32,000 bases of DNA from an uncultured Chloroflexia bacterium (GCA_963718915.1 CAVRAI010000007.1:90001-122000); one strand, 5' to 3'; counted from the stretch's first letter, positions 1-22,928 are shown. Notes: a model not told the origin generated them from the sequence alone. Made by a program: numbers and translations.

Positions 1-895
1 CACGAGGCGCCCATCCGCCAGCGTCATGATCGCGAAGTCTGGCGCAACCGCGCGGGCACGATCCAGAAAAAGCGCCACCGTCGGAACCTGACGCAACGCA
101 TCGAGCGACTCCAGTTGCGCCGCGTCTGGCAGGGGAAGCGGTGGGACCGGAAAACACTGCTCGCCACGCACATTCAGCGCCGAGCGGCTCGTCACCAGCG
201 CTTTGACCCGCGGGCAGGCGATGAGCAACTCCAGCACAGCGCGCGCGGCGGGCAACACCTGCTCAAAGTTATCCAGCACCAGCGCCAGTTCGCGGTCGTG
301 GAGCGCCTGGATCAGGGTTTCGCGCAGCGGCAAACTGTCGCTCTCATGCACGTCCAGCGCCTGAGCGATAGCAGGTAAAACACGCTCCGGTTCGCGGATG
401 GGAATGAGGTCCACGAAGACGACATCCTGGCTCTGCCACTCGCGCCGCAGTCTCGCCGCCAGCTCCAACGCCAGCCGCGTCTTGCCCACGCCCGCCGGAC
501 CCGTCAGCGTCAGCAGCCGTGTCGTCTCGCGCCCGATCAATTCCAGCAGCGCCGCCTGCTCGCGCTCGCGCCCGATCAGCGAGGTCAATGGCACGGGGAG
601 ATCGCCAGCGAGGAAGTCGTCGGGGCGCCGTTGGGCATCACCAGCATCATCGCGCGAATACCCCCCTCGCGCCTTCGCGACAAACGCCGCCGCTTCGTCC
701 GGGGCGAGCGCGAGCGCGTCGCTGAGCAGGCTGACGGTTGCTCGCTGCGGGGCAAGCGTAATCCCGCGTTCGAGCAGACTCACCGATGCCACACTCAGGC
801 CCGCGCGCTCGGCGAGTTCTTCCTGTGTGAGTCCGCTACGACGCCGGTAACGACGTAGCAGGCTGGCGAAGTCGGGGGTATCCACCGCTGACATG
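1..895 (-). CDS. HTH (XRE-type) + P-loop NB-ARC/AAA STAND-family regulator, N-terminal part; the 3' end runs off the window
   Basis: Absent from the ORF track because there is no stop in the window. My translation from ATG 895-893 gives MSAVDTPDFASLLRRYRRRSGLTQEELAERAGLSVASVSLLERG (XRE HTH), then LTGPAGVGKTRLA (Walker A), then LALVLDNFEQV (Walker B-like). Track ORFs 398-850 and 519-725 (+) are its antisense shadows. Confidence 0.8.
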
Positions 896-7654: not shown

Positions 7655-9460
7655 CTACTTTGGGGCGGGATAGACCGAAAAATAGTAGAACATGCCGACC
7701 GCATGGCTATTGCCCAGCCAGAGACCAACGTGGCCATATGACGGCGTCTCACTGGATTCATCGTGGTAGATGCCAACCAAGTTATCGCGCACAAAACACA
7801 AATAGTCCCGACCACGCATGATCACCGCTAGATAGTTGTTGGCATCCTTCCCAGTCTGGACAGCATCGCTGTGATCGTTGCTCATGAGGACTATTCGTTG
7901 CGCCGTCGCGCCATTTGCCACATGCATGCGAGCCAGCATCCACCCACCCGACGAGGTTAACGTAAACACGACCTTGTCAGCCCCGTCGGCGCTTTCGTGC
8001 AAAACGACGCCGATGTCACTCGGAGGAGTAACACCCTTCAGTCCGGCTGTCAACTCAACCGTGGCGTCACCATACTGCTGCGGCAACACAGCCTCCATAG
8101 CTCGCCCGTCTGGCGCGCCCGTCAAATAATAGCCGTCAGCCTTGAAGGAATAGCTACCATCATCCACCTTCGCGGCATGATTCGGCCAGGCGCCGTCGTT
8201 GGTGCGGAAGTCGATGGTATAGTAGGGCGACTCGTAATCAATATGCTGCTCGATGAGGTCGGAATACCGGAATACCTGGATTCCCTGGGCAACTAGACCA
8301 ACAATGATCGCCACGACCGCGAGCGAGAGTATCGCGATCTGGCTCGCCTTGAGCCAGTGTGGCCAGGTTGTCCCCAGCCGCCGCGTCGCGGGATGGCCAG
8401 TCTGTGCCTCGCTTGCCAGCCGGAGCTGTGAGGGCAGAAGCGGAGTGAGCAATTCGAGCGTGCCTATGCTAAGCTGCGTCAGAGTTCCAGTCACATCGCG
8501 CAGACTGAGATGGGTGCGGGCCACGATGAGACGCGAGAGGCGCTCGCTGTCGGCGAGCTGCTCCGCTGACGCTTCGTCCGAAACGGGCCACGAGATCGAG
8601 CGTTCGGTGGTCGCGAGTGTATATGCGGTCGCCTGAGACGTCCCATTCTCTATGATGCTCCCCTTGAGATGCACATTGTCGTCGACCTTATAGAACGCGC
8701 GCGCATCATGCCAGGCGAGGGGCTGCTCCCTGTCGCGGCGGCCAGCGATCTGACGTATCCCCCAGTCGTCGGCTACGATCTGTACCTCCTCCACCCGTCC
8801 CACGCCACGTAGCCGCTGCACGACGACGACGATGAATCCGATGAGGCTTAGCAGAGTGGTTAATGCGAACAGGCCCAGCATGATGAGGAACATGGGGCGC
8901 ATCCATGCTGTGATAGGGCTACCATCGAGGTAAGGCGAAGCGACAACAAAGGCAGCGATGCATATCGCGCTCACGCCGAGGCTCACGAGCAGCATCGCGG
9001 CAGACTGACCGAGCGTCGAGTGCGAGCGACGACGTTTCGCCGATCCGAATGGCCCGAACGTGACAGGACGAATCGGCAGTTCCGAGATGGGAAGCGGCTC
9101 AGGCTGCTCGGCGGCGAGCGGGGCAAGTTTGTCGTCGCCAGATATCGCTGCCGCACGTACACGCTCCGCCTGGGAGCGGGCGTCCCGCATGAACGGGCGC
9201 AATCGTTGCAGGACCGATCCCAGTGTGCTGACGCCGAAAAACGCAATGGTCATGCCGCCGAGGGCGTACGCCGAGAACCAGAAATGTTGCCAGTATAGCT
9301 CGTACCCGTTCTGGAACGCCAGCCAAACCTGCCAGCCCGCGTAGATCGCAACGCTCAGTGACGCAAGCCCGAGGATCCACAACAGTGCCGGGATAACTCC
9401 CAGTGACGAGTCTGCCTGTGGCCTGTACCTGTGTGAGGTATCGTCGCCTTCAGTGGTCAT
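7655..9460 (-). CDS. Multi-pass membrane protein with C-terminal extracytoplasmic beta-sandwich (ConA-like lectin/glucanase-type) domain; hypothetical
   Basis: 601-aa ORF with hydrophobic helices near aa 20-85, 155-215 and 378-400. The C-terminal 190 aa (YSFKADGYYLTG...VELTAGLKG...VVFTLTSSGGWMLAR...YLAVIMRGRDYLCFVRDNLVG...GHVGLWLGN...FYYFSVYP) has the strand pattern of jelly-roll lectin-like domains. The domain call is inference. Confidence 0.7.
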   Translation of the reverse strand: MTTEGDDTSHRYRPQADSSLGVIPALLWILGLASLSVAIYAGWQVWLAFQNGYELYWQHFWFSAYALGGMTIAFFGVSTLGSVLQRLRPFMRDARSQAERVRAAAISGDDKLAPLAAEQPEPLPISELPIRPVTFGPFGSAKRRRSHSTLGQSAAMLLVSLGVSAICIAAFVVASPYLDGSPITAWMRPMFLIMLGLFALTTLLSLIGFIVVVVQRLRGVGRVEEVQIVADDWGIRQIAGRRDREQPLAWHDARAFYKVDDNVHLKGSIIENGTSQATAYTLATTERSISWPVSDEASAEQLADSERLSRLIVARTHLSLRDVTGTLTQLSIGTLELLTPLLPSQLRLASEAQTGHPATRRLGTTWPHWLKASQIAILSLAVVAIIVGLVAQGIQVFRYSDLIEQHIDYESPYYTIDFRTNDGAWPNHAAKVDDGSYSFKADGYYLTGAPDGRAMEAVLPQQYGDATVELTAGLKGVTPPSDIGVVLHESADGADKVVFTLTSSGGWMLARMHVANGATAQRIVLMSNDHSDAVQTGKDANNYLAVIMRGRDYLCFVRDNLVGIYHDESSETPSYGHVGLWLGNSHAVGMFYYFSVYPAPK

Positions 9461-13203: not shown

Positions 13204-14865
13204 CTAATGGATCTCGCTATCGGATGTCGCCAGTAGCTTTGCCAGCGCGTCGTCGGCTGCGTCCTGCGTTGCCTGCGCGCTATCATGGCGGAGTATGCTC
13301 AGCCGATCCATCACTGGCGCGGGCGACGGGGAACGGAGCTGTCCAAGCGCCTGAACAACCGCTGTTCGCACATCTGATCGCGAATCCTGGGATGCGGTCA
13401 CGAGATGCTCGATGGCTGCCGGGGTTCCCGCTGAGCTTAACGCCACCGCCGCCGCTGTGCAGACGCCTGCGTATTCGTCTGTGAGCAGTTGCGCCAACGA
13501 TTCAACTGGGGCGCTGCTTCCCAACTGTCCAAGGGCTGTGGCTGCCGCGGCGCGCACCTGCCAGTCGTCGTCTTCGAGTGCCCGGCAAAGTGGATCGCCG
13601 ACGCCGCGCGTTCCCAGAATCCGGGCTGCCGCTACTCTGACGTAGGGGTTACTGTCTGTCAGGCAACGAACCAGGCTCATCCAGCGGCGCCTGCTCTCTC
13701 TGCACGCCGAGCGACCGCAATGCGGCGACGCGCACGTATTCGCTGGAATCGTCGAGCATTGGAAGGATGGCCGAAAGCAGCGCCGGATCGTCGCGCGCTC
13801 CAAGCGCCAGAACAGCGGCGGCGCGCACATGGGCGCTGATGTCGTTCAAAGCACTGATGAGCGGTTGAGACGGAACGTGCTTCCCAAGAGATCCCAGGGC
13901 CAGTGCGGCGGCCTCGCGAATAATATCATCTGGGTCGTTCAATGCTGCCATAATCGGCTCGAAGGCTATGCCCTCTCCCAGGGAGCCCAGGGCCAACAAA
14001 GCTGTGAAGCGCACCTGTGTGCGTCCGCTTTCGAGGAGGCGTAGCAGCGCGGGTATCACCGTACGATCATCGAGACGACCCAGCGTCGTGGCGATGGCCG
14101 CCTGTGCCTCAACATCGTCTGTGGCAAGTTCGGCGACCAGGGCGTCACGCGGGGCAGAGCGTCCCAAGGTTCCCCAGGGCGCGCGCCGCTGTATCGCGCA
14201 CCTCCGTAGCTGGATGCGTAGAGACACGCCATCAGACTGTCAATCGGCGCCTGCTCTCCGAGATGCGCCAGCGCGCGCGCGATTGCCTCGCGCACCTCGG
14301 CATTCGCATCACCCATTGCCCTCAGCAGGGCTGGTATGGAGGCAGATGTACCCACATACTGCAGAGGTTCTCGCGGCAATCAGGCGCACGGTGCCATTCA
14401 TGTTCCCCAGCGCCATTTCCATGCGCACTCGCGCCACGTCCGCTAATGCCCGGTCAGCGAGTCGCCACTTCTGGCGCAAGTGGCAAGAAGGCGCTTCCAC
14501 CGTATGGCCTGTCCGCTGTGCGCGGCCTTGATCAGTAACTCGATCCATTCCAGGATGATTACCCGCGCGATGTCGGGCGCATCATCTGGCCCACTGGCGC
14601 CAGCCGCTGCCCGTCCCGATTCCTCCGCAGACTCCGGCAATTCGGAGAGCGACCGCACCGCCAGCGTCAGCGCCGCATCGCCAATATCGCCTTCTGGAAG
14701 CATTCGCTGGGCGACCAATGTCGTCAACCAATCGCGCGCGAACCCTTTACTGCCATCGTCAGTCGCGGTTGCCAGAATTCCGATAAATAGCTGAAGAACG
14801 CCCTGCCATTGCTGCGCAAACCGATGTCCGCGCAATACCTCCCAAATAGCTGTACGGGCAGCCAC
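13204..14865 (-). pseudogene. HEAT-repeat (PBS-lyase/EZ-HEAT type) C-terminal region of the upstream NACHT gene, split over at least 7 frame segments
   Basis: HEAT consensus (D..VR..AA.ALG.LG...A...L) continues across track ORFs 14443-14865, 14309-14548, 14056-14379, 13649-14227 and 13204-13830. A short frame-2 piece I translated (STHPATEVRDTAARALGNLG, about 14165-14220) also carries it. See findings. Confidence 0.7.
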
Positions 14866-16462
14866 ATCGCCTGACTGTCAATCGTCGCGCCAGCGCCTCC
14901 GCCGCCAGGAATTCCTGGAATGTCTGGTGAATGAATCGGTAGCGGTCACGGGCTACGGCCTCGATCAGCCCGGAATTGATGACGCTCCTGGCAAGGTCGG
15001 CGCGGTTGAAACCATCATGGTGCTCGCGCTGGATCTCGCCAAGAAACGCCAGCAGGGCATCCATAGAGAACATTCCGGGGGAGGATTGCAGGCGCAACGC
15101 GATCTCGCCGAGGATTTCGCGCAGCACAAGGCGTCGGGCCATGTCGGCTTCACGCACCTTGAGCACCTCGTCGCTGACTTCGCTATAGAGCGCCGCGCGA
15201 TTAGGTGGAAGCCTGCCGATCCGTCCAAAGATGAGCGCGGCCAGACTGAAGAGCAACGGATTGTCTCCCCAGAGCGCCGCCTGGCGATGATGCTCAATCA
15301 GGCCGACAAAGATGGCTGGCGAGCCAGCCTCGCCACGCAGGAGCTTCCTGGCCAGTTGCTCGCGCATGGGATGATCGAGCGGGCGTAGCTCCCATTCCGC
15401 GAAGTTTCCCTGTGACAGGTCTGTGCGGGCGTAGTCGGTAAGGCGCGACCCAACCACCCATGCGCTACCCCAGCGCGACGAGAAGTCGGCGATCAGTTTC
15501 GTGACGTCCTCGCGCGCCTCAGCAGGGACATTGTCAAGCCCATCGAGACAGATGAGCGCCTGGCTGTCCTGCATCACCTGCCAGATAACATTCGCATATC
15601 CGGCGTCCAGCTCCAAATCGGTGACGACGGTATCGAGATACTGGCGCAGTGAGATGTGCGACTGCGCAAAGTGGGGCAGCGAGATGAACACGGGCAGCGG
15701 CGCCTGCTCATCACTCTGGGCATGCAGCGCGGCCTGAGTGACCAGCCGCTTCAACATCGTCGTCTTGCCGCTGCCAGGGCCGCCGAGCACAACAATCCTG
15801 CGCGCCGGGCTTTTCTCCAGAGCATCCTCGCCGCTCTCCGCGATGACATCCGCCTGCTCGCGCTCGGCAGGCAACCGGTCACTGGCGTCATCCGTGGCTT
15901 GCCCAATTGCGGCGCTTTCCGCGGTGTCGAGTGATGGGTCGCGGCGTAGCCGCAGCGGCTGGAACACCTGATTGAGCGCGAATTCATGCACTGGCTGTGT
16001 CGGCAACGACACCGTATTGTATCGGTGAAGCACCGCCGCGAGATAGTGCGCGCGGGCGGTCAGGGTATCTTGCGGATAGGCGTCATGGTAGCGCTTGGCA
16101 AGGTAGCCGACGGGCGCAAGGAGAACCAGCAGCGCCAGCCCAATGTAGGTAGGAGCGGGATACTGCGCCACGAGTGAATTGAACAGCCCCCAGGAGGTGA
16201 TCTCTTTCCAGAATGGATCCCACCCCTTATGGATCAGCGTCGGCGTCGCGTTGGTGACATACGCGGTTGCCACGGCGGCAACTACGAGCCACCAGCGAAA
16301 CAGAATCCAGCGCATCCAGCGTGGCAGCCGCGCGATCACCCGAACGCCCAATGGCACGCCACGAGCCGAAGCAGGCGGTACGGACGGACGAGTCGAAGAG
16401 CCAGTTACACCGCTCTCGGCTTCTGGCTGCGCTTCTTCGACGGGAGGAGCCTGTTTCATCAT
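14759..16462 (-). CDS. 2TM-NACHT STAND NTPase (intact N-terminal 1.6 kb of a NACHT-HEAT gene; the last ~35 codons of this ORF are out-of-frame read-through)
   Basis: TM helices WILFRWWLVVAAVATAYV and TYIGLALLVLLAPVGYL. Walker A VVLGGPGSGKTTMLKRL (about 15758-15784), Walker B ALICLDGLDNV, and YRFIHQTFQEFLAAEALA. The ATG overlaps the stop of the upstream kinase gene (ATGA). Confidence 0.8.
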   Translation of the reverse strand: MMKQAPPVEEAQPEAESGVTGSSTRPSVPPASARGVPLGVRVIARLPRWMRWILFRWWLVVAAVATAYVTNATPTLIHKGWDPFWKEITSWGLFNSLVAQYPAPTYIGLALLVLLAPVGYLAKRYHDAYPQDTLTARAHYLAAVLHRYNTVSLPTQPVHEFALNQVFQPLRLRRDPSLDTAESAAIGQATDDASDRLPAEREQADVIAESGEDALEKSPARRIVVLGGPGSGKTTMLKRLVTQAALHAQSDEQAPLPVFISLPHFAQSHISLRQYLDTVVTDLELDAGYANVIWQVMQDSQALICLDGLDNVPAEAREDVTKLIADFSSRWGSAWVVGSRLTDYARTDLSQGNFAEWELRPLDHPMREQLARKLLRGEAGSPAIFVGLIEHHRQAALWGDNPLLFSLAALIFGRIGRLPPNRAALYSEVSDEVLKVREADMARRLVLREILGEIALRLQSSPGMFSMDALLAFLGEIQREHHDGFNRADLARSVINSGLIEAVARDRYRFIHQTFQEFLAAEALARRLTVRRCGCPYSYLGGIARTSVCAAMAGRSSAIYRNSGNRD

Positions 16463-19122
16463 GCATCCCCCTCTGGTTTATCAGGCGTATGCAGTTCCGC
16501 CTCGACAATGCGGGAAAGTTCGGCCGCGTCGCCATAAAGTGGCGCATTCTCGAGCGCGAGGCGCAGTGCACCCAACGCTTGCAGTAGCAGGTCTTTCTGC
16601 TCCACGGTAGTCGATGCGCCGATGGATCGCTGCCAGTACGCCAGCGCCAGATGGTAAAGGACATCTGCCTGATCTGGATTTCCTCCCAGGCTGTGCACGA
16701 ACTCCACCAATGCCTCGGCGTGGCGTGCGAGACCCAGCAGCGCCTTGCCACGAACAAACGGCAATCGATACTGAACCGTCGCATCAGACTCCCTATCTAT
16801 GCACGCCTCGGCTTTGGCGCAAGCTTGCAATGCCTGCTCGTAAGCCTCCCAGCGCTCCTCGTCCTCCGGGTGTTCCTGCTCGCTCAGAGCGAGCGCAAAG
16901 TCCATCCAGTATTCCGGCTTGTTCGGAGCCATTTCGACAACGCGGCGCGCGAGCTGGAGGTGTTCTTCGGCCTGACCGATAGCGCCATACGTCTTTGCGA
17001 GACGATGCCAGAATGCCGTTTCATTCTCAGGTGTATGAGCGCGCGGGCGAGCGTCAGGCTGCGACGGCAGCCCCAGGCAATCCGCAAGCGCCCCGAGCCG
17101 CCCATGTACCTGGCGTGCTGTGGGACGCATCTCCGGATCGAGTGCGAGACAGGCAGATACAAGGTTGTCAAGCTCTTCAAGCGCTGCAGTGGCCAGCGCC
17201 GTCTCCTTCTGGGAAACATCACTTCCACTCAACAACTGCGAGAGCGGCCCATCGCTCAGCGCTTTCACCTCCGCATCGCCTAGATGCCGACTCGGCCCGC
17301 TGGCATGGGCAGCGCACCACGCGGCGAAGGGCCCGGCGGTCATCGTCAATTGCGGGTCAGGTTGGTGCGGATAGGAGGCTTGTCCGCTTACCCCGGCAAA
17401 CAACTCGAAGAGCACAACGCCGAACGCATAAACATCGCTGGCGGGTTCGACCGCCTCCATCCCCAGCCACTGCTCTGGAGGCATGTATGGAGGAGTACCT
17501 GCGACAGGTCCACGAGAGCCCATCCTTACGATGATACTTGTCGCTCCATGAAAATCTGGAGCTTTCTGCCCGGACTTCGGATAATCTCGCCCAGCAACGA
17601 ATGCGCGCGTCTGCCGCAGCCCATCTAAGTCATCGTCGGCGGAACCCTGATCGAACCGCGAATCATCGGCACGACCATATAAATTCCGTACCATTTCCAA
17701 AATGCGATAGGTGCTCGCCTCATCTTCTTTGCCCTGCTCGTTCTCGTCTCCGAGGTGCGCAAGCAGCCACACGCGCGAGAGCCCATAATCGAGAATCCGT
17801 GCTGACCAATTCGCGGCAATGAGCATGTTTTCTGGTTTGATGTCACAATGTACATTGGGCAGTGGACGCTCGTGATCTGAATCACGTGTGTGGAGCGCAT
17901 CGAGCGCCGCCACAATATCCAGCGCCCAACTGAACACGGCATCCAGAGAAAGGGTTGATGATCTGCCCGGCCCGTGCATCTGTTGTAGCTTGTCACGTAA
18001 CGAGCCTTCTGGTAGGTATTCCATCACCAGACTTGGTAGATCATCGAGCGCCGGTATCTGTACCATTTCGTCAATATGGACAATGGCCGCATGAGGCCAC
18101 AGATGAGTAGCGACCAACGCTTCCTGCTCAAAATCCGCCAGCATTGCTGCTCTTTGCTCCCTCGATGCCGAAGCAAGGCGGTCAGGGCGTACAAACTTGA
18201 TAGCGCGATATTTGCCGCCCTGCAAAGCATCGGAGCCCCACACAACTAAACCCATGCCACCACTGACTGTCCCAATTACCGTCAGATCAATCGTCGCGTA
18301 GTCTGTTAGCCTCGTGCCGACTGTTATCTCGGGGATCTGTCTTAGACGTGATTGCCGACCGTTTGCGGAGGAGCCATCGGTCTTCCCGTCGCCACCCGTT
18401 GGCTGTTCACCTGAGGGCATCTCGTCGTTAGCCCATGGGTTCGGAACCTTGGTGCGTGAAATAATCACGCCAGGATTGGGTGAGTAAAGCCTCTCAAAAG
18501 TGGAGTGTTTTTGATCTTGCTGAAGCCGACGAATCCATGATATGTCAGGCTGGGTGGGAGTCTGGATCGCCTGCTGGTCAAGCGGATCAGGATGTGATAT
18601 GTCTGGCGCACTGCTCGTGTACTCACTCGTCCCTGCGCCCGACGCGATGAAGGAAACAGGCTTCTCTTCTGGCTCATCCTCTGTGTTTTGATCTCGCTCA
18701 CTCATGCTACGGCGTTTCACACTGGATGTCGTAATCGGAGGCTCCGAGACAATCAATAGTGTTTCGACACCATCTTCTCGAAAGGGGCTGATATTAGAGC
18801 GCTCGATAGCCTCCAAATAGCGTTCGTATCCTTCATCTAGGCCGTATTGCGCCACATTGTTCCAGAGCTTGCGGTGTTCCTCGTCGGGTAGGAGGGCAGC
18901 CACGTCAGGTGCCAGGAGCGCGGGATGTGCGCGCAGATAGGCGCGCGAGACTTCCCAATCGGGCGCAGCAAGCCATTCACGGATAGCGCGCGATAGCGCA
19001 TCATGCGTGTCAGCGCCGCGCGAGGCTGCCGGAGGAGGCGCCGCCTCATTCTGCGATCCCTCAGGCGCATTATCCTGGCGTTGTTGCTGTCTCTTTGAGC
19101 GGCGTTTACCCCAATCCGGCAT
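16459..19122 (-). CDS. Ser/Thr protein kinase (Hanks-type) with C-terminal TPR-like helical repeats and a long N-terminal extension
   Basis: Gly-loop IGTVSGGMGLVVWG, YRAIKF (catalytic Lys), HCDIKPENMLI, DYG in place of DFG, GTPPYMPPE, DVYAFGVVLFEL. The C-terminal 200 aa are helical repeats (AFWHRLAKTYGAIGQAEEHLQLARRVVEMAPN...). GGAGGG lies before ATG 19122. Confidence 0.85.
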   Translation of the reverse strand: MPDWGKRRSKRQQQRQDNAPEGSQNEAAPPPAASRGADTHDALSRAIREWLAAPDWEVSRAYLRAHPALLAPDVAALLPDEEHRKLWNNVAQYGLDEGYERYLEAIERSNISPFREDGVETLLIVSEPPITTSSVKRRSMSERDQNTEDEPEEKPVSFIASGAGTSEYTSSAPDISHPDPLDQQAIQTPTQPDISWIRRLQQDQKHSTFERLYSPNPGVIISRTKVPNPWANDEMPSGEQPTGGDGKTDGSSANGRQSRLRQIPEITVGTRLTDYATIDLTVIGTVSGGMGLVVWGSDALQGGKYRAIKFVRPDRLASASREQRAAMLADFEQEALVATHLWPHAAIVHIDEMVQIPALDDLPSLVMEYLPEGSLRDKLQQMHGPGRSSTLSLDAVFSWALDIVAALDALHTRDSDHERPLPNVHCDIKPENMLIAANWSARILDYGLSRVWLLAHLGDENEQGKEDEASTYRILEMVRNLYGRADDSRFDQGSADDDLDGLRQTRAFVAGRDYPKSGQKAPDFHGATSIIVRMGSRGPVAGTPPYMPPEQWLGMEAVEPASDVYAFGVVLFELFAGVSGQASYPHQPDPQLTMTAGPFAAWCAAHASGPSRHLGDAEVKALSDGPLSQLLSGSDVSQKETALATAALEELDNLVSACLALDPEMRPTARQVHGRLGALADCLGLPSQPDARPRAHTPENETAFWHRLAKTYGAIGQAEEHLQLARRVVEMAPNKPEYWMDFALALSEQEHPEDEERWEAYEQALQACAKAEACIDRESDATVQYRLPFVRGKALLGLARHAEALVEFVHSLGGNPDQADVLYHLALAYWQRSIGASTTVEQKDLLLQALGALRLALENAPLYGDAAELSRIVEAELHTPDKPEGDA

Positions 19123-19637
19123 ACACCCTCCAGTGCTTCATGGCGAAAGTGACGCATCCTGCCATAGCTTGATAGAACCTGGGTCAGCGTGCGAAATGCG
19201 CAGGTAACACCGGGTATTACTGGTGAGCGCTTGTGACAACGCTGGGAATTTGCGCGGCTAAGCGAAGGTGATCGCCGCGGACCTGAAGCGCAAACTGAGC
19301 AATCCGGGGGATTGGTATAGTATAGGCAGTAGAGGCGGTTGATTGTCAACGTCCTCCGGATATGCAGGCTGACAATCCTGCACAGTGTCCAGCACATCGC
19401 TCAGGGCCATATCATACTGCCAATGATGGAACTATGTCACCTATACGTTTATTCCTGTATTCTCCTCCCATCCTTTATCCACAACACCCTAGATCAGCCG
19501 CCGCATCCTCGTTCCTCCAACCGTGACTGGCGCGTGTGGTCGGCGCTGTCGGCTGTGACGCATCTGTAACATCCAGGGGATATGGTGACTCTGAGCGGGT
19601 TACGACAGGCGAAAATGCCCGCTCAGAGGGAAGGAGC

Positions 19638-21805: not shown

Positions 21806-22928
21806 TTACGAGGTCGCCGCGCTGAGCGCCTCGCCTGCCCGCGCGGTCAGGTTGGCCTGGATGAAGTGATCCATCTCGCCATTCAGGTAGGCGACGGTGT
21901 CGGACTGGTCGGCGCCCGTACGATGGTCTTTCACCAGCGAGTAGGGATGGATCGTCACCGTGCGAATCTGGTTGCCAAAGTCGGCCTCGACGTGCACCCC
22001 CTTGAGCCGCGCCGCCTCACGCTCGCGCTGCTCGATCTCCAGTTCGTAGAGCTTCGACTTGAGCACGCGGAGCGCCAGCTCGCGGTTCTGGATCTGCGAG
22101 CGCTCGTTCTGGCAGGTGACGACAATGCCCGTTGGCTTGTGGCGGATGCGTACGGCGGAGTCGGTCTTGTTGAGATGCTGGCCGCCCTTGCCGGTCGAGC
22201 GGAAGGTGTCCACATCCAGGTCTTCGGGCCGGATCTTGATCTCAATCGGATCCTCGCCGATATCGGGCATCACTTCAACCTTGGCGAAGGACGTCTGTCT
22301 GCGATGGGCGGCGTCGAAGGGTGAGAGGCGAATCAGCCGGTGCGCGCCCGCCTCGCCACGCAGGTAGCCGTAGGCGTACGGCCCATCCACGCTGAAGGTC
22401 GTGCTCTTGATGCCAGCTTCTTCGCCGGGCATCTCGTCCAGCAGTTCCACTTTGTAGCCGTGTGACTCCGCCCAGCGCATATAGGCGCGCTGCAGCATCT
22501 GCACCCAGTCCATCGCGTCGGTGCCGCCATTACCCGCGTGGATCGAGATGATGGCCGATTTAGCGTCGTGCGGCCCGTTGAGTAGCAGCCGGAAACGCTG
22601 CTTTTCCAGGTCTTCTTCGATCCGCACGAGCGATTCGTCGATCTCGCCCTCGAGCTGGCTATCTGGATCACTCTCGAGCAGTTCGGTCAGTTCGTGGAGT
22701 TCGGCGAGGCGCGCGTCGAGCGATTCCCAGACAAACACCTCGTCACGCAGGCGGCTCATCGTCTGCATCTGTCGCTGCGCATGCACACGGTCGCCGTAGA
22801 AATCAGGCGCGAGCGACTCTTCCTCGATAGCCGCTATCTGCTGCTTTTTGGCAGCGAGGTCAAAGATACACCGTTATTTCATACACCCGGCGTTGTAGTG
22901 CTTCGATGCGGGTCATTAGTTCACTCAT
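21806..22928 (-). CDS. prfB: Peptide chain release factor 2, with programmed +1 ribosomal frameshift (frame 0: 22928-22863; +1 frame: 22861-21806)
   Basis: The main ORF has the SPF tripeptide (RLSPFD) and GGQ (STGKGGQHLNKT). Upstream I read ATG AGT GAA CTA ATG ACC CGC ATC GAA GCA CTA CAA CGC CGG GTG TAT GAA ATA ACG GTG TAT CTT TGA C. This 22-codon frame-0 leader ends in the classical TAT CTT TGA C shift site and continues in +1 as DLAAKKQQIAAIEEESLAPDFYGDR... Confidence 0.9.

What the first reader, a model, noticed from the sequence alone, without database searches (positions are those of the whole stretch)
13204..19122. Translationally coupled Ser/Thr-kinase-TPR and 2TM-NACHT-HEAT gene pair: candidate undescribed STAND signalling or defence module
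The kinase-TPR ORF ends ...GGG GAT GCA TGA and the next ORF begins ATG ATG AAA CAG. The TGA (16461-16459) overlaps the ATG (16462-16460), a 4-nt ATGA overlap typical of obligatorily co-expressed partners. The downstream protein has two N-terminal TM helices, a NACHT-type P-loop NTPase and a long HEAT-repeat tail. That is the effector-NTPase-repeat-sensor layout known for bacterial NACHT/Avs-type antiphage STAND proteins. Here the only N-terminal module is a membrane anchor, and the NTPase is hard-wired to a eukaryotic-like kinase with its own TPR repeats. I do not recognise a described system with this pairing. The pair is embedded among unrelated housekeeping and redox genes. A second STAND regulator (HTH-NB-ARC) sits at 1-895.
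Basis: partly seen in the sequence, partly recalled or inferred. Interest (0 to 1): 0.7.

Follow-up and report, generated by a model that had tools for sequence, protein, structure and literature searches.

The report
Kinase beside a broken NACHT-HEAT gene
A protein kinase gene overlaps by four bases the start of a membrane-anchored NACHT-HEAT "immune-sensor-type" gene, but that second gene is broken by six reading-frame changes here and relatives of the two genes are never neighbours elsewhere, so this is an ordinary one-off gene pair, not a new two-gene system.

Summary
The sequence facts hold. An 887-aa Hanks-type Ser/Thr kinase (16459-19122, minus strand) ends in ...GCA TGA. That stop overlaps, as ATGA, the start of an ORF with two predicted TM helices and a NACHT NTPase, and HEAT repeats follow down to 13204.

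The NACHT-HEAT gene is not one ORF. Its reading path changes frame six times (near 14875, within 14446-14581, and near 14365, 14220, 14162 and 13678). This is either recent decay or local consensus error at a polymorphic locus. I could not decide which.

The pairing is not conserved:
- No kinase lies next to the NACHT gene in 67 genome loci, in five metagenome contigs of close NACHT relatives, or in three loci carrying the same 2TM module.
- No NACHT lies near the kinase in 81 kinase-relative loci.

The NACHT belongs to a Chloroflexota-type NACHT-HEAT clade whose N-terminal module is swapped between relatives (TIR, caspase, other, 2TM). That is the described bacterial NACHT pattern. PADLOC and NCBIfam give only domain-level hits.

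The one mildly new item is the ~90-aa 2TM module. It is rare (4 other clusters among 1.84 billion representatives) and is shared between NACHT and NB-ARC STAND proteins.

Verdict: a new member of a known kind, with low interest.

The parts
16459..19122 (-). Ser/Thr protein kinase gene, 887 aa, intact ORF
   Evidence: Pkinase E 1.6e-23. An identical 887-aa product is called on an independent Logan contig, L002. The best solved-structure matches are CERK1, PknB and IRAK4 kinase domains.
18322..19122 (-). Kinase N-terminal extension (residues 1-267): low-complexity sequence plus a short helical segment, with no family match. It is absent from the ortholog P0122.
   Evidence: No Pfam or NCBIfam hit. 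P0122 aligns only from residue 268. G+C is lower here, 0.55-0.59.
17023..18321 (-). Hanks-type kinase domain (residues ~268-700). Catalytic residues are present: K309 (AIK), E332/E334, H425-C426-D427 (non-RD 'HCD'), N432, D445-Y-G and P548-P-E. About 100 residues separate DYG from PPE.
   Evidence: Read from the sequence. All of these residues are invariant with P0122. The Pkinase match is split into two stretches, 287-452 and ~535-578.
16462..17022 (-). Kinase C-terminal alpha-helical, TPR-like tail (residues 701-887)
   Evidence: TPR_17 scores below its cut-off. MamA (TPR) matches at E 1.2e-3. Relatives P0122, L075 and L076 have the same kinase + TPR-like tail, and L079, L128 and L136 carry clear TPR arrays.
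16459..16473 (-). Gene junction: SD-like GAGGGGGA (16473-16466) and the ATGA stop/start overlap (16462-16459)
   Evidence: The stop-to-stop frame of the downstream ORF opens only 5 codons upstream.
14876..16462 (-). First frame segment of the NACHT-HEAT gene (residues 1-529 of the restored protein). The called ORF continues out of frame to the stop at 14759.
   Evidence: tblastn of P0002 leaves this frame at 14876.
16079..16345 (-). N-terminal 2TM module (residues 40-128): LPxW..R..L..WW, TM1, a loop with two short helices (LIQ.GW...YL.SW.LL.P..HYP), TM2, ..RY
   Evidence: Hydropathy. AlphaFold helices at 48-79, 81-89, 92-100 and 102-128. Four homologous clusters occur at the N-termini of NACHT and NB-ARC proteins.
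15335..15802 (-). NACHT NTPase domain (Pfam residues 221-376). Walker A GGPGSGKT lies at 15761-15784. Walker B LDGLDN lies at 15530-15547, where the relatives have E in place of the final N.
   Evidence: PF05729, 43.5 bits, cut-off 26.7. Alignment A1: E at position 311 is near-invariant and the window has N. The family signature D[GAS]hDE is quoted from Kibby et al..
13207..14875 (-). Helical linker plus ~11 HEAT repeats of 31 residues, spread over three frames. Frame changes: 14875 (+1), within 14446-14581 (-1 or +2), ~14365 (+1), ~14220 (+1), ~14162 (+1), ~13678 (+1). Stop at 13204-13206.
   Evidence: Three-frame read. tblastn with P0002 and the L008, L009 and L010 proteins. The restored 1087-aa protein gives HEAT_2 E 3.7e-56 and NACHT E 5.7e-11. 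There are no near-identical DNA repeats.
15816..15860 (-). Four differences from the independent Logan contig of run ERR11563127: three synonymous third-position changes and E216A, just before that contig ends
   Evidence: This shows a second allele or paralog of the NACHT gene in the read set.
19411..19440 (-). Promoter-like site GTGACA-18-TATGAT, about 290 nt upstream of the kinase start. Weak: the number of sites is at chance level.

Best explanation
This is a lineage-specific juxtaposition of two separately evolving genes. It is not a conserved system.

Gene 1 is an intact Hanks-type Ser/Thr kinase. It is predicted to be active, has a non-RD (HCD) catalytic loop and carries a TPR-like tail. 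It belongs to a small kinase-TPR family whose other members lie in unrelated contexts.

Gene 2 belongs to a Chloroflexota/Ktedonobacteria-type clade of bacterial NACHT-HEAT STAND NTPases. These are normally single-gene units. Their N-terminal output module is swapped between close relatives: TIR, caspase, an uncharacterised ~90-aa N-terminus next to a PNP_UDP_1 gene, or 2TM.

The window copy carries a rare ~90-aa two-TM module. In this assembly it is interrupted by six frame changes, so at most a sensor-less 567-aa product could be made from the sequence as written.

Inferred mechanism for an intact version, by analogy with described bacterial NACHT proteins:
1. The HEAT solenoid binds a trigger.
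2. The NACHT domain binds NTP and oligomerises.
3. The clustered N-terminal TM hairpins damage the membrane.

The two genes are probably co-transcribed and could be translationally coupled (ATGA overlap plus an SD-like site). Nothing indicates that the kinase acts on the NACHT protein.

Shown: domain content, the frame breaks, the lack of conserved adjacency, and the modular N-termini. Inferred: co-transcription, the sensor/effector roles, and whether the frame breaks are biological.
For: Domains and junction.

Frame changes. At least 13 other window genes cover their Pfam profiles in single ORFs.

NACHT clade with swapped N-termini:
- P0002 and P0003 are caspase fusions, and L003 has a separate Peptidase_C14 gene just upstream of the NACHT gene. 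P0006, P0016, P0017 and the Dictyobacter locus L008 are TIR. P0005 and P0007-P0014 have other N-termini.
- These relatives are 37-45% identical over query residues ~130-530 only.

No kinase neighbour of NACHT relatives:
- tblastn and phmmer over L003-L074 found no co-oriented kinase gene next to any NACHT gene. The few hits lay kilobases away, were due to non-kinase domains, or fell within the NACHT ORF itself.
- The contexts show none either.

No NACHT near kinase relatives: tblastn and an A1-derived HMM over L001 + L075-L154 gave zero hits. P0122 is followed by a convergent gene. The L075 kinase is followed by unrelated ORFs with no NACHT match.

The 2TM module appears on other STANDs without a kinase:
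- P0246 (2TM-NACHT) has a TGT gene upstream.
- P0249 (2TM-NB-ARC-TPR) has a glycosyltransferase upstream.
- P0247 is cut by a DDE_3 transposase and has no kinase upstream.

No shared adaptor domain links the two N-termini.

The literature already describes HEAT sensors, TM regions, TIR/caspase/PNPase/protein-kinase effectors and effector swapping among close NACHTs.
Against: - The 4-nt overlap with an SD-like site, and the absence of a terminator between the genes, fit an operon.
- Kinase-NACHT fusions exist (P0052, P0068, P0145), and S/T kinases are listed as STAND effectors. A functional link is therefore not implausible.
- Both genes have very few close relatives in the databases, so 'not conserved' rests on distant relatives (27-45% identity) and mostly short contigs.
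- The frame changes may be assembly errors. On the restored path there is no stop in 558 codons, and the 31-residue HEAT register is kept where it can be traced across four of the insertion sites (~14365, ~14220, ~14162, ~13678). Five of the six changes are single-base insertions. The read set also holds a second allele. If they are errors, the gene may be intact and functional.
Confidence: 0.7

Rival explanations
1. A real, lineage-restricted two-gene module. The frame changes are consensus errors, the 1087-aa 2TM-NACHT-HEAT protein is intact in vivo, and the translationally coupled kinase regulates it (phosphorylation as a lock or a trigger) or is recruited by it as a second effector.
For: - ATGA overlap plus an SD-like site.
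- The restored path has no stop codons, and the 31-residue HEAT register is kept where it can be traced.
- Allelic variation at the locus could cause local consensus errors.
- Kinase-NACHT fusions and kinase effectors are known in STAND systems.
- The kinase catalytic residues are intact.
Against: - Adjacency was not seen in any of the roughly 150 related loci whose surroundings were examined.
- There is no shared adaptor domain.
- Relatives of the NACHT work as single genes.
- The Walker B motif is DGLDN, not the family's D[GAS]hDE.
Confidence: 0.15
2. The 567-aa product (2TM + NACHT + winged-helix region, no HEAT sensor) is itself the functional protein. It would be a sensor-less membrane STAND controlled by the upstream kinase in place of a repeat sensor.
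For: - The 567-aa ORF is intact, has the start context described and was called as a protein in public annotation (P0001).
- P0246 shows a 2TM-NACHT without HEAT repeats.
Against: - The ORF ends 39 codons after a frame change, in out-of-frame sequence.
- About 1.6 kb of well-preserved HEAT-coding sequence follows in other frames. This shows that the ancestral gene continued.
- P0246 has its own C-terminal region and is not a truncation.
Confidence: 0.05
3. The pair is a split remnant of a single kinase-NACHT fusion protein (Rosetta-stone relationship).
For: Kinase + NACHT single proteins are among the distant hits: P0052, P0068, P0103 and P0145.
Against: - Those fusions match only the P-loop region: 21-26% of the query for P0052 and P0068, 44% for the short fragment P0103.
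- The kinase has its own complete TPR-like tail, shared with the stand-alone relatives P0122, L075 and L076.
- The NACHT has its own N-terminal module, conserved on other STANDs.
Confidence: 0.03

Closest known systems
Bacterial NACHT (bNACHT / NLR-related) proteins with repeat sensors (Kibby et al., bioRxiv 10.1101/2022.07.19.500537)
   Same: NACHT NTPase with a C-terminal HEAT 'antigen-receptor-type' repeat region and a variable N-terminal output module. Close relatives keep the sensor type but swap effectors. That is exactly what alignment A1 shows.
   Different: - The window copy is frame-broken.
- Its Walker B is DGLDN, not D[GAS]hDE.
- Its N-terminal module is a non-enzymatic 2TM hairpin.
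- No antiphage test exists for this clade.
- No PADLOC model matches it.
TIR-NACHT-HEAT of Dictyobacter aurantiacus (L008, 1593 aa), caspase-NACHT-HEAT (P0002, P0003) and the ~890-aa NACHT-HEAT group (P0005, P0007-P0014)
   Same: These are the closest sequence relatives: 37-45% identity over the NACHT and helical region, with HEAT repeats of the same 31-residue type.
   Different: Their N-termini are TIR, caspase or an unrelated ~90-aa region. They are single intact genes with no kinase neighbour. The ~890-aa group sits divergently from a PNP_UDP_1 gene in the three contigs looked at.
2TM-STAND proteins P0246 (2TM-NACHT) and P0249 (2TM-NB-ARC-TPR)
   Same: They share the ~90-aa N-terminal 2TM module (33-38% identity, E 1.5e-10 to 1.9e-5). 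P0246 also shares the NACHT clade.
   Different: They have different C-terminal regions: TM segments in P0246, TPR in P0249. P0249 has a different NTPase clade. The upstream genes are TGT and a glycosyltransferase, not a kinase.
S/T/Y protein kinases as effectors of STAND conflict systems, and kinase-NACHT fusions (Kaur et al. 2021, PMC8195603; Kibby et al.)
   Same: A Hanks-type kinase is genetically linked to a NACHT NTPase. Fusion examples are P0052, P0068 and P0145.
   Different: - Here the kinase is a separate gene with its own TPR-like tail.
- The described multi-gene systems couple their components through shared EAD/Death-like adaptor domains. None is shared here.
- The linkage is not conserved.
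Defence-associated kinases: PD-T4-6, MADS MAD6 and the staphylococcal Stk2 type
   Same: Similarity is at the kinase catalytic domain only: mad6 E 2.1e-34, PD-T4-6 E 2.1e-28, and NCBIfam MAD6 at 66 bits.
   Different: The scores are far below the family cut-offs (66 against 460 bits). Matches cover only the generic catalytic core. The partner genes of those systems are not present.

Membership tests
Bacterial NACHT (STAND) NTPase | NACHT domain match above the curated threshold, with Walker A GxxxxGK[ST] | tested here: met
   PF05729 scores 43.5 bits against a 26.7 cut-off. GGPGSGKT is invariant in A1.
Bacterial NACHT (STAND) NTPase | Walker B signature D[GAS]hDE (Kibby et al.) | tested here: not met
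   The window has D-G-L-D-N. All 16 aligned relatives have D-[SGA]-L-D-E. The signature is quoted. The first four positions fit and the final acidic residue is replaced.
Bacterial NACHT (STAND) NTPase | Tripartite layout: N-terminal output module, NTPase, C-terminal repeat sensor, in one polypeptide | tested here: inconclusive
   The layout is present in the DNA: 2TM, NACHT, ~11 HEAT repeats. It is spread over three frames by six frame changes. Whether these are real could not be determined.
Bacterial NACHT (STAND) NTPase | Antiphage or cell-death activity dependent on NTP binding | not testable with these tools
   This needs expression and phage challenge.
Known defence systems (PADLOC-DB v2, including Avs and bNACHT-type models; NCBIfam antiphage models) | Significant full-length match to a system component model | tested here: not met
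   The best PADLOC hits for the NACHT ORF have E >= 9.5e-4 over ~30-75 residues of the P-loop region. NCBIfam EruA scores 36.5 bits against a 1000 cut-off.
Hanks-type (eukaryotic-like) Ser/Thr protein kinase | Pkinase domain above threshold and catalytic K, E, HxD..N, DxG and APE-like motifs | tested here: met
   PF00069 scores 83.9 bits against a 31.7 cut-off. K309, E332/334, H425-C-D427, N432, D445-Y-G and P-P-E550 are all present and invariant with P0122.
TPR repeat protein (kinase tail) | TPR family match above threshold | tested here: inconclusive
   TPR_17 scores 19.3 bits, below the 24.4 cut-off. MamA matches at E 1.2e-3. The relatives have faint to clear TPR hits.
Conserved two-gene kinase + NACHT system | Adjacency of orthologs of both genes in independent genomes | tested here: not met
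   A kinase lies next to the NACHT gene in 0 of 67 genome loci of NACHT relatives and 0 of 5 metagenome contigs of close NACHT relatives. It lies upstream in 0 of 3 readable 2TM-module loci. A NACHT lies near the kinase in 0 of 81 loci of kinase relatives.
EAD-coupled multi-gene STAND conflict systems (Kaur et al. 2020, 2021) | The same adaptor (EAD/Death-like) domain on the NTPase N-terminus and on the separately encoded effector | tested here: not met
   BLASTP of kinase residues 1-280 against NACHT residues 1-140 gives E 0.064, on low-complexity sequence only. Neither N-terminus has a Pfam adaptor hit.
Translationally coupled operon pair | Stop/start overlap with a ribosome-binding site inside the upstream gene, and a single transcript | tested here: inconclusive
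   The ATGA overlap and GAGGGGGA 4 nt upstream of the ATG are present. No convincing terminator lies between the genes. Transcript and coupling need RNA-seq or reporter assays.

The most novel reading that the evidence does not exclude
The ~90-aa 2TM hairpin (LPxW..WW-TM1-LIQ.GW..YL.SW.LL.P..HYP-TM2-RY) may be a previously undescribed, portable membrane-perforating output module of STAND NTPases, shuffled between NACHT and NB-ARC scaffolds in Chloroflexota. In this genome the gene would be intact (frame changes being consensus errors at a polymorphic immune locus), and it would have recruited a translationally coupled non-RD kinase as a lineage-specific gate of the death switch.
Probability: 0.1. 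Interest if true: 0.6.

Novelty: new member of a known kind. Interest (0 to 1): 0.25.

Why it matters
The finding removes a false lead. A 4-nt overlap between a kinase gene and a STAND gene looks like a new signalling or defence module. Comparative context shows it to be a one-off neighbourhood, and the STAND partner is frame-broken in this assembly.

What remains useful:
- It documents a Chloroflexota NACHT-HEAT clade that swaps TIR, caspase, a PNP-linked N-terminus and 2TM output modules. This is a clean natural example of effector shuffling on a fixed sensor scaffold.
- It identifies a rare, conserved 2TM N-terminal module shared by NACHT and NB-ARC STANDs. This is a candidate membrane effector that could be tested directly.
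- It is a caution that clustered single-base frame changes at a polymorphic locus in a metagenome-type assembly cannot be read as pseudogenisation without the reads.

Tried and rejected
1. I searched the 5.8-billion-protein set with the restored HEAT region, hoping to find fragment calls or an intact allele from the independent Logan assembly. Only generic HEAT proteins came back (<=37% identity), with no near-identical protein. This was uninformative and used the last search of that kind.

2. Exact look-ups of the fragment ORFs and of P0001 failed, as did the look-up of P0248. The source record, organism name and source annotation could not be retrieved.

3. The genome-contig scan did not return the source genome itself. 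Taxonomy is therefore inferred only from the best NACHT relatives: Dictyobacter, and Ktedonobacteria/Chloroflexia MAGs.

4. A GC3 frame plot to look for hidden frameshifts elsewhere in the window was not discriminating in this genome. I relied on full-length Pfam coverage of other genes.

5. Repeat-driven misassembly of the HEAT region is unlikely. There is no tandem DNA repeat, and the units are only 60-80% identical over 30-40 nt.

6. The apparent pattern that each extra base sits after a codon whose third base could be an alternative allele is largely a by-product of how I placed the insertions. I do not use it as evidence.

7. Split-fusion and EAD-adaptor explanations were rejected.

8. 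I did not run a fold search on the 2TM model. It is a small helical hairpin with mean pLDDT 64.6, so matches would be meaningless.

Full report
**Observation**

On the minus strand, an 887-aa ORF (16459..19122) is followed by a 567-aa ORF (14759..16462). The junction reads GGG GAT GCA TGA with ATG ATG AAA CAG. The TGA lies at 16461-16459 and the ATG at 16462-16460, exactly as reported. An SD-like GAGGGGGA lies at 16473-16466, four bases before the ATG. The downstream frame opens only five codons further upstream, so this ATG, or the next one, is the start.

Pfam confirms the domains:
- Pkinase on the first protein (E 1.6e-23).
- NACHT on the second (E 4e-11, above its cut-off).
- HEAT_2 on the downstream pieces (up to E 1.3e-36).

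The TPR claim is weak. TPR_17 scores below its cut-off, and the TPR protein MamA matches at E 1.2e-3. Relatives of the kinase, however, have the same helical tail or clear TPR arrays.

Two hydrophobic stretches lie in the NACHT N-terminus. An AlphaFold model has long helices at 48-79 and 102-128 joined by two short helices, with block pLDDT 66-80 over residues 41-120. Together these support the two TM helices.

**The NACHT-HEAT gene is not one ORF**

tblastn with intact relatives leaves the first frame at 14876 and continues in other frames. A three-frame read, using the strict 31-residue HEAT period as a ruler, gives this path:
- Frame 1 runs from 16462 to 14876.
- One extra base lies at 14875.
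- A one-base loss or two-base gain lies somewhere in 14446-14581.
- Extra bases lie at about 14365, 14220, 14162 and 13678.
- The stop is at 13204-13206.

The restored 1087-aa protein scores HEAT_2 E 3.7e-56 and NACHT E 5.7e-11.

**Are the frame changes real?**

At least 13 other genes in the window cover their Pfam profiles in single ORFs. These include carboxylesterase, PFK, RsgA, a pyridine-nucleotide disulphide oxidoreductase, RF2, Ppx/GppA, AhpC, a response regulator, a sigma factor, an SDR, a phosphonate-binding protein, a YkuD protein and the kinase. The breaks are therefore local, not a general assembly problem. The HEAT units are too divergent at the DNA level for repeat-driven misassembly.

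Four features make me unwilling to call the gene a proven pseudogene:
- The restored path has no stop in 558 codons.
- The 31-residue HEAT register is kept where it can be traced across four of the insertion sites (~14365, ~14220, ~14162, ~13678).
- Five of the six changes are single-base insertions.
- An independent Logan contig from run ERR11563127 is identical to the window from 19278 to 15861. It then differs at four sites within 45 nt (three synonymous, one E216A) just before it ends.

The last point means the read set contains a second, coding-constrained allele or paralog of this NACHT gene. Collapsed haplotypes are a known cause of local consensus indels. I rate real decay and artefact as roughly equally likely. 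Only the reads can settle it.

One more departure is independent of the frame changes. The Walker B motif reads DGLDN, whereas all 16 aligned relatives have D[SGA]LDE. The published NACHT signature is D[GAS]hDE.

**What the NACHT gene is**

The closest relatives are P0002-P0017, at 37-45% identity. They match only residues ~130-530, which cover the linker, NACHT and helical/winged-helix region. They carry different N-termini:
- Caspase (Peptidase_C14) in P0002 and P0003, and a separate caspase gene just upstream of the NACHT gene in L003.
- TIR in P0006, P0016 and P0017.
- An unrelated ~90-aa N-terminus in the ~890-aa group P0005 and P0007-P0014.

In genomes, the best matches are a 1593-aa TIR-NACHT-HEAT protein of Dictyobacter aurantiacus and proteins from two Chloroflexia/Ktedonobacteria MAGs. 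The window therefore probably comes from Chloroflexota. This is an inference, because the source record could not be retrieved.

This is the pattern Kibby et al. describe for bacterial NACHT proteins. They list HEAT and other repeat 'antigen-receptor-type' sensors, TM regions, and N-terminal effectors that include TIR, caspase, PNPase and protein kinases. They also note that effectors vary between close relatives while the sensor type is kept.

**The 2TM module**

A full HMMER scan of 1.84 billion representative proteins with residues 1-135 found four other clusters, at E 1.5e-10 to 1.9e-5 and 33-38% identity. In each the match lies at the N-terminus:
- P0246 (808 aa) is a 2TM-NACHT of the same clade, with extra C-terminal TM segments.
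- P0249 (981 aa) is a 2TM-NB-ARC-TPR.
- P0247 is a 2TM-NACHT cut by a DDE_3 transposase.
- P0248 is a 132-aa protein that spans only the module.

The alignment shows a conserved pattern: LPxW..R..L..WW, TM1, LIQ.GW...YL.SW.LL.P..HYP, TM2..RY. So this is a real but rare N-terminal module that moves between STAND clades. It occupies the position where relatives carry enzymatic effectors. That it acts as a membrane-damaging output is an inference from position and analogy. A membrane-anchoring or sensing role is not excluded (Kibby et al. discuss TM regions as sensors).

**The kinase**

All catalytic residues are present and invariant with its one clear ortholog P0122 (41% identity): K309, E332/334, HCD427, N432, DYG and PPE. 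It is a non-RD kinase, with about 100 residues between DYG and PPE. The 267-aa N-terminal extension has no family match and is absent from P0122.

PADLOC hits (mad6, PD-T4-6) and NCBIfam hits (PknB/Stk1, MAD6) are confined to the catalytic core and lie far below the family cut-offs. The PDB matches are generic kinase domains.

**Is the pair a system?**

No evidence supports that. The checks were:
- P0122 is followed by a convergent gene.
- A metagenome scan with the kinase alignment returned 80 loci. Neither tblastn with 17 NACHT proteins nor an HMM of alignment A1 found a NACHT in them or in L001.
- The best of these loci, L075, has unrelated ORFs downstream with no NACHT match.
- None of the 67 genome loci of NACHT relatives, each with up to 10 kb of flank, has a co-oriented kinase gene next to the NACHT gene. 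The few kinase-query hits lay kilobases away, were due to non-kinase domains such as PD40, or fell within the NACHT ORF itself.
- The five metagenome contigs of close NACHT relatives have no kinase.
- The three 2TM-module loci that could be read have TGT, a glycosyltransferase or no gene upstream.
- The two N-termini share no adaptor domain of the kind that couples separately encoded effectors to STANDs in the systems of Kaur et al..

The ATGA overlap and the SD-like site make co-transcription and possible translational coupling likely. But 4-nt overlaps are the commonest overlap between co-directional bacterial genes (established knowledge), so they do not show partnership.

The caveat is that both genes have few close relatives and many contigs are short. 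A very young, lineage-restricted module cannot be excluded. I give it about 0.15.

**Context**

The flanks are housekeeping or redox genes: PrmC, a phosphonate-binding protein, a metallo-beta-lactamase-fold protein, a sigma factor, AhpC/TSA, a response regulator, a DinB-like protein, a disulphide oxidoreductase, an SDR, RF2, a carboxylesterase, PFK, RsgA, Ppx/GppA and a YkuD protein. No integrase, transposase or known defence gene was found among the 30 window ORFs scanned. An HTH_31 + STAND-type P-loop ORF runs off the window start.

**Verdict**

What is there:
- An intact, lineage-specific kinase-TPR gene.
- Abutting it, a frame-broken member of a known kind, a bacterial NACHT-HEAT STAND protein.
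- The N-terminal 2TM module of that protein, which is rare and conserved and is the only modestly new element.

Noticed in passing
window 21806-22928 (-), site at 22865-22859: The release factor 2 gene (PCRF + RF-1 domains) carries the canonical programmed +1 frameshift site. A short upstream frame (ATG at 22928) ends in TAT CTT TGA C, and the main frame continues from there. This is a genuine biological frameshift, correctly preserved in the assembly.
   Followed up: partly
window 1-894 (-): An ORF running off the window start encodes HTH_31/HTH_3 plus a STAND-type P-loop NTPase (AAA_22, AAA_16, nSTAND1, with NACHT exactly at its cut-off). It is a second STAND-type gene in the window.
   Followed up: partly
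L004 2094-5967, L006 2431-6610, L007 1154-5370: In all three contigs inspected, the ~890-aa NACHT-HEAT subgroup (P0008, P0009, P0011) lies divergently next to a PNP_UDP_1 (nucleoside phosphorylase) gene of 318-424 aa. This could be a conserved NACHT + PNPase two-gene arrangement. PNPase is a listed STAND effector type.
   Followed up: no
L157 904-2671: A second 2TM-NACHT gene (P0247) is truncated after 215 aa by an inserted DDE_3/HTH_32 transposase gene. This is another disrupted copy of this rare architecture.
   Followed up: partly
window 15816-15860 vs L002 3419-3463: The independent Logan contig of run ERR11563127 differs from the window at four sites in 45 nt (three synonymous, one E216A) and then ends. 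A second allele or paralog of the NACHT gene exists in the sample. The kinase gene is identical in both.
   Followed up: partly
window 17503-17848 (-), kinase residues 425-540: The kinase is a non-RD type (HCD, not HRD) with DYG in place of DFG. About 100 residues lie between DYG and PPE. The ortholog P0122 has a shorter insert at the same place.
   Followed up: no
window 15530-15532 (-), NACHT residue 311: The Walker B motif reads DGLDN where all 16 aligned relatives have E. In other STANDs this position is tied to NTP hydrolysis, so the protein may bind but not hydrolyse NTP, or the change may be part of the gene's decay.
   Followed up: no
window 7655-9460 (-): An intact 601-aa ORF, also called on Logan contigs, has no Pfam match at E <= 1e-3.
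   Followed up: no
L119 536-1159 and 3848-4174: In one metagenome contig, a distant relative of the kinase lies about 2.7 kb upstream of a TIR-like coding stretch (matched by the TIR domain of P0006, E 3e-6).
   Followed up: no
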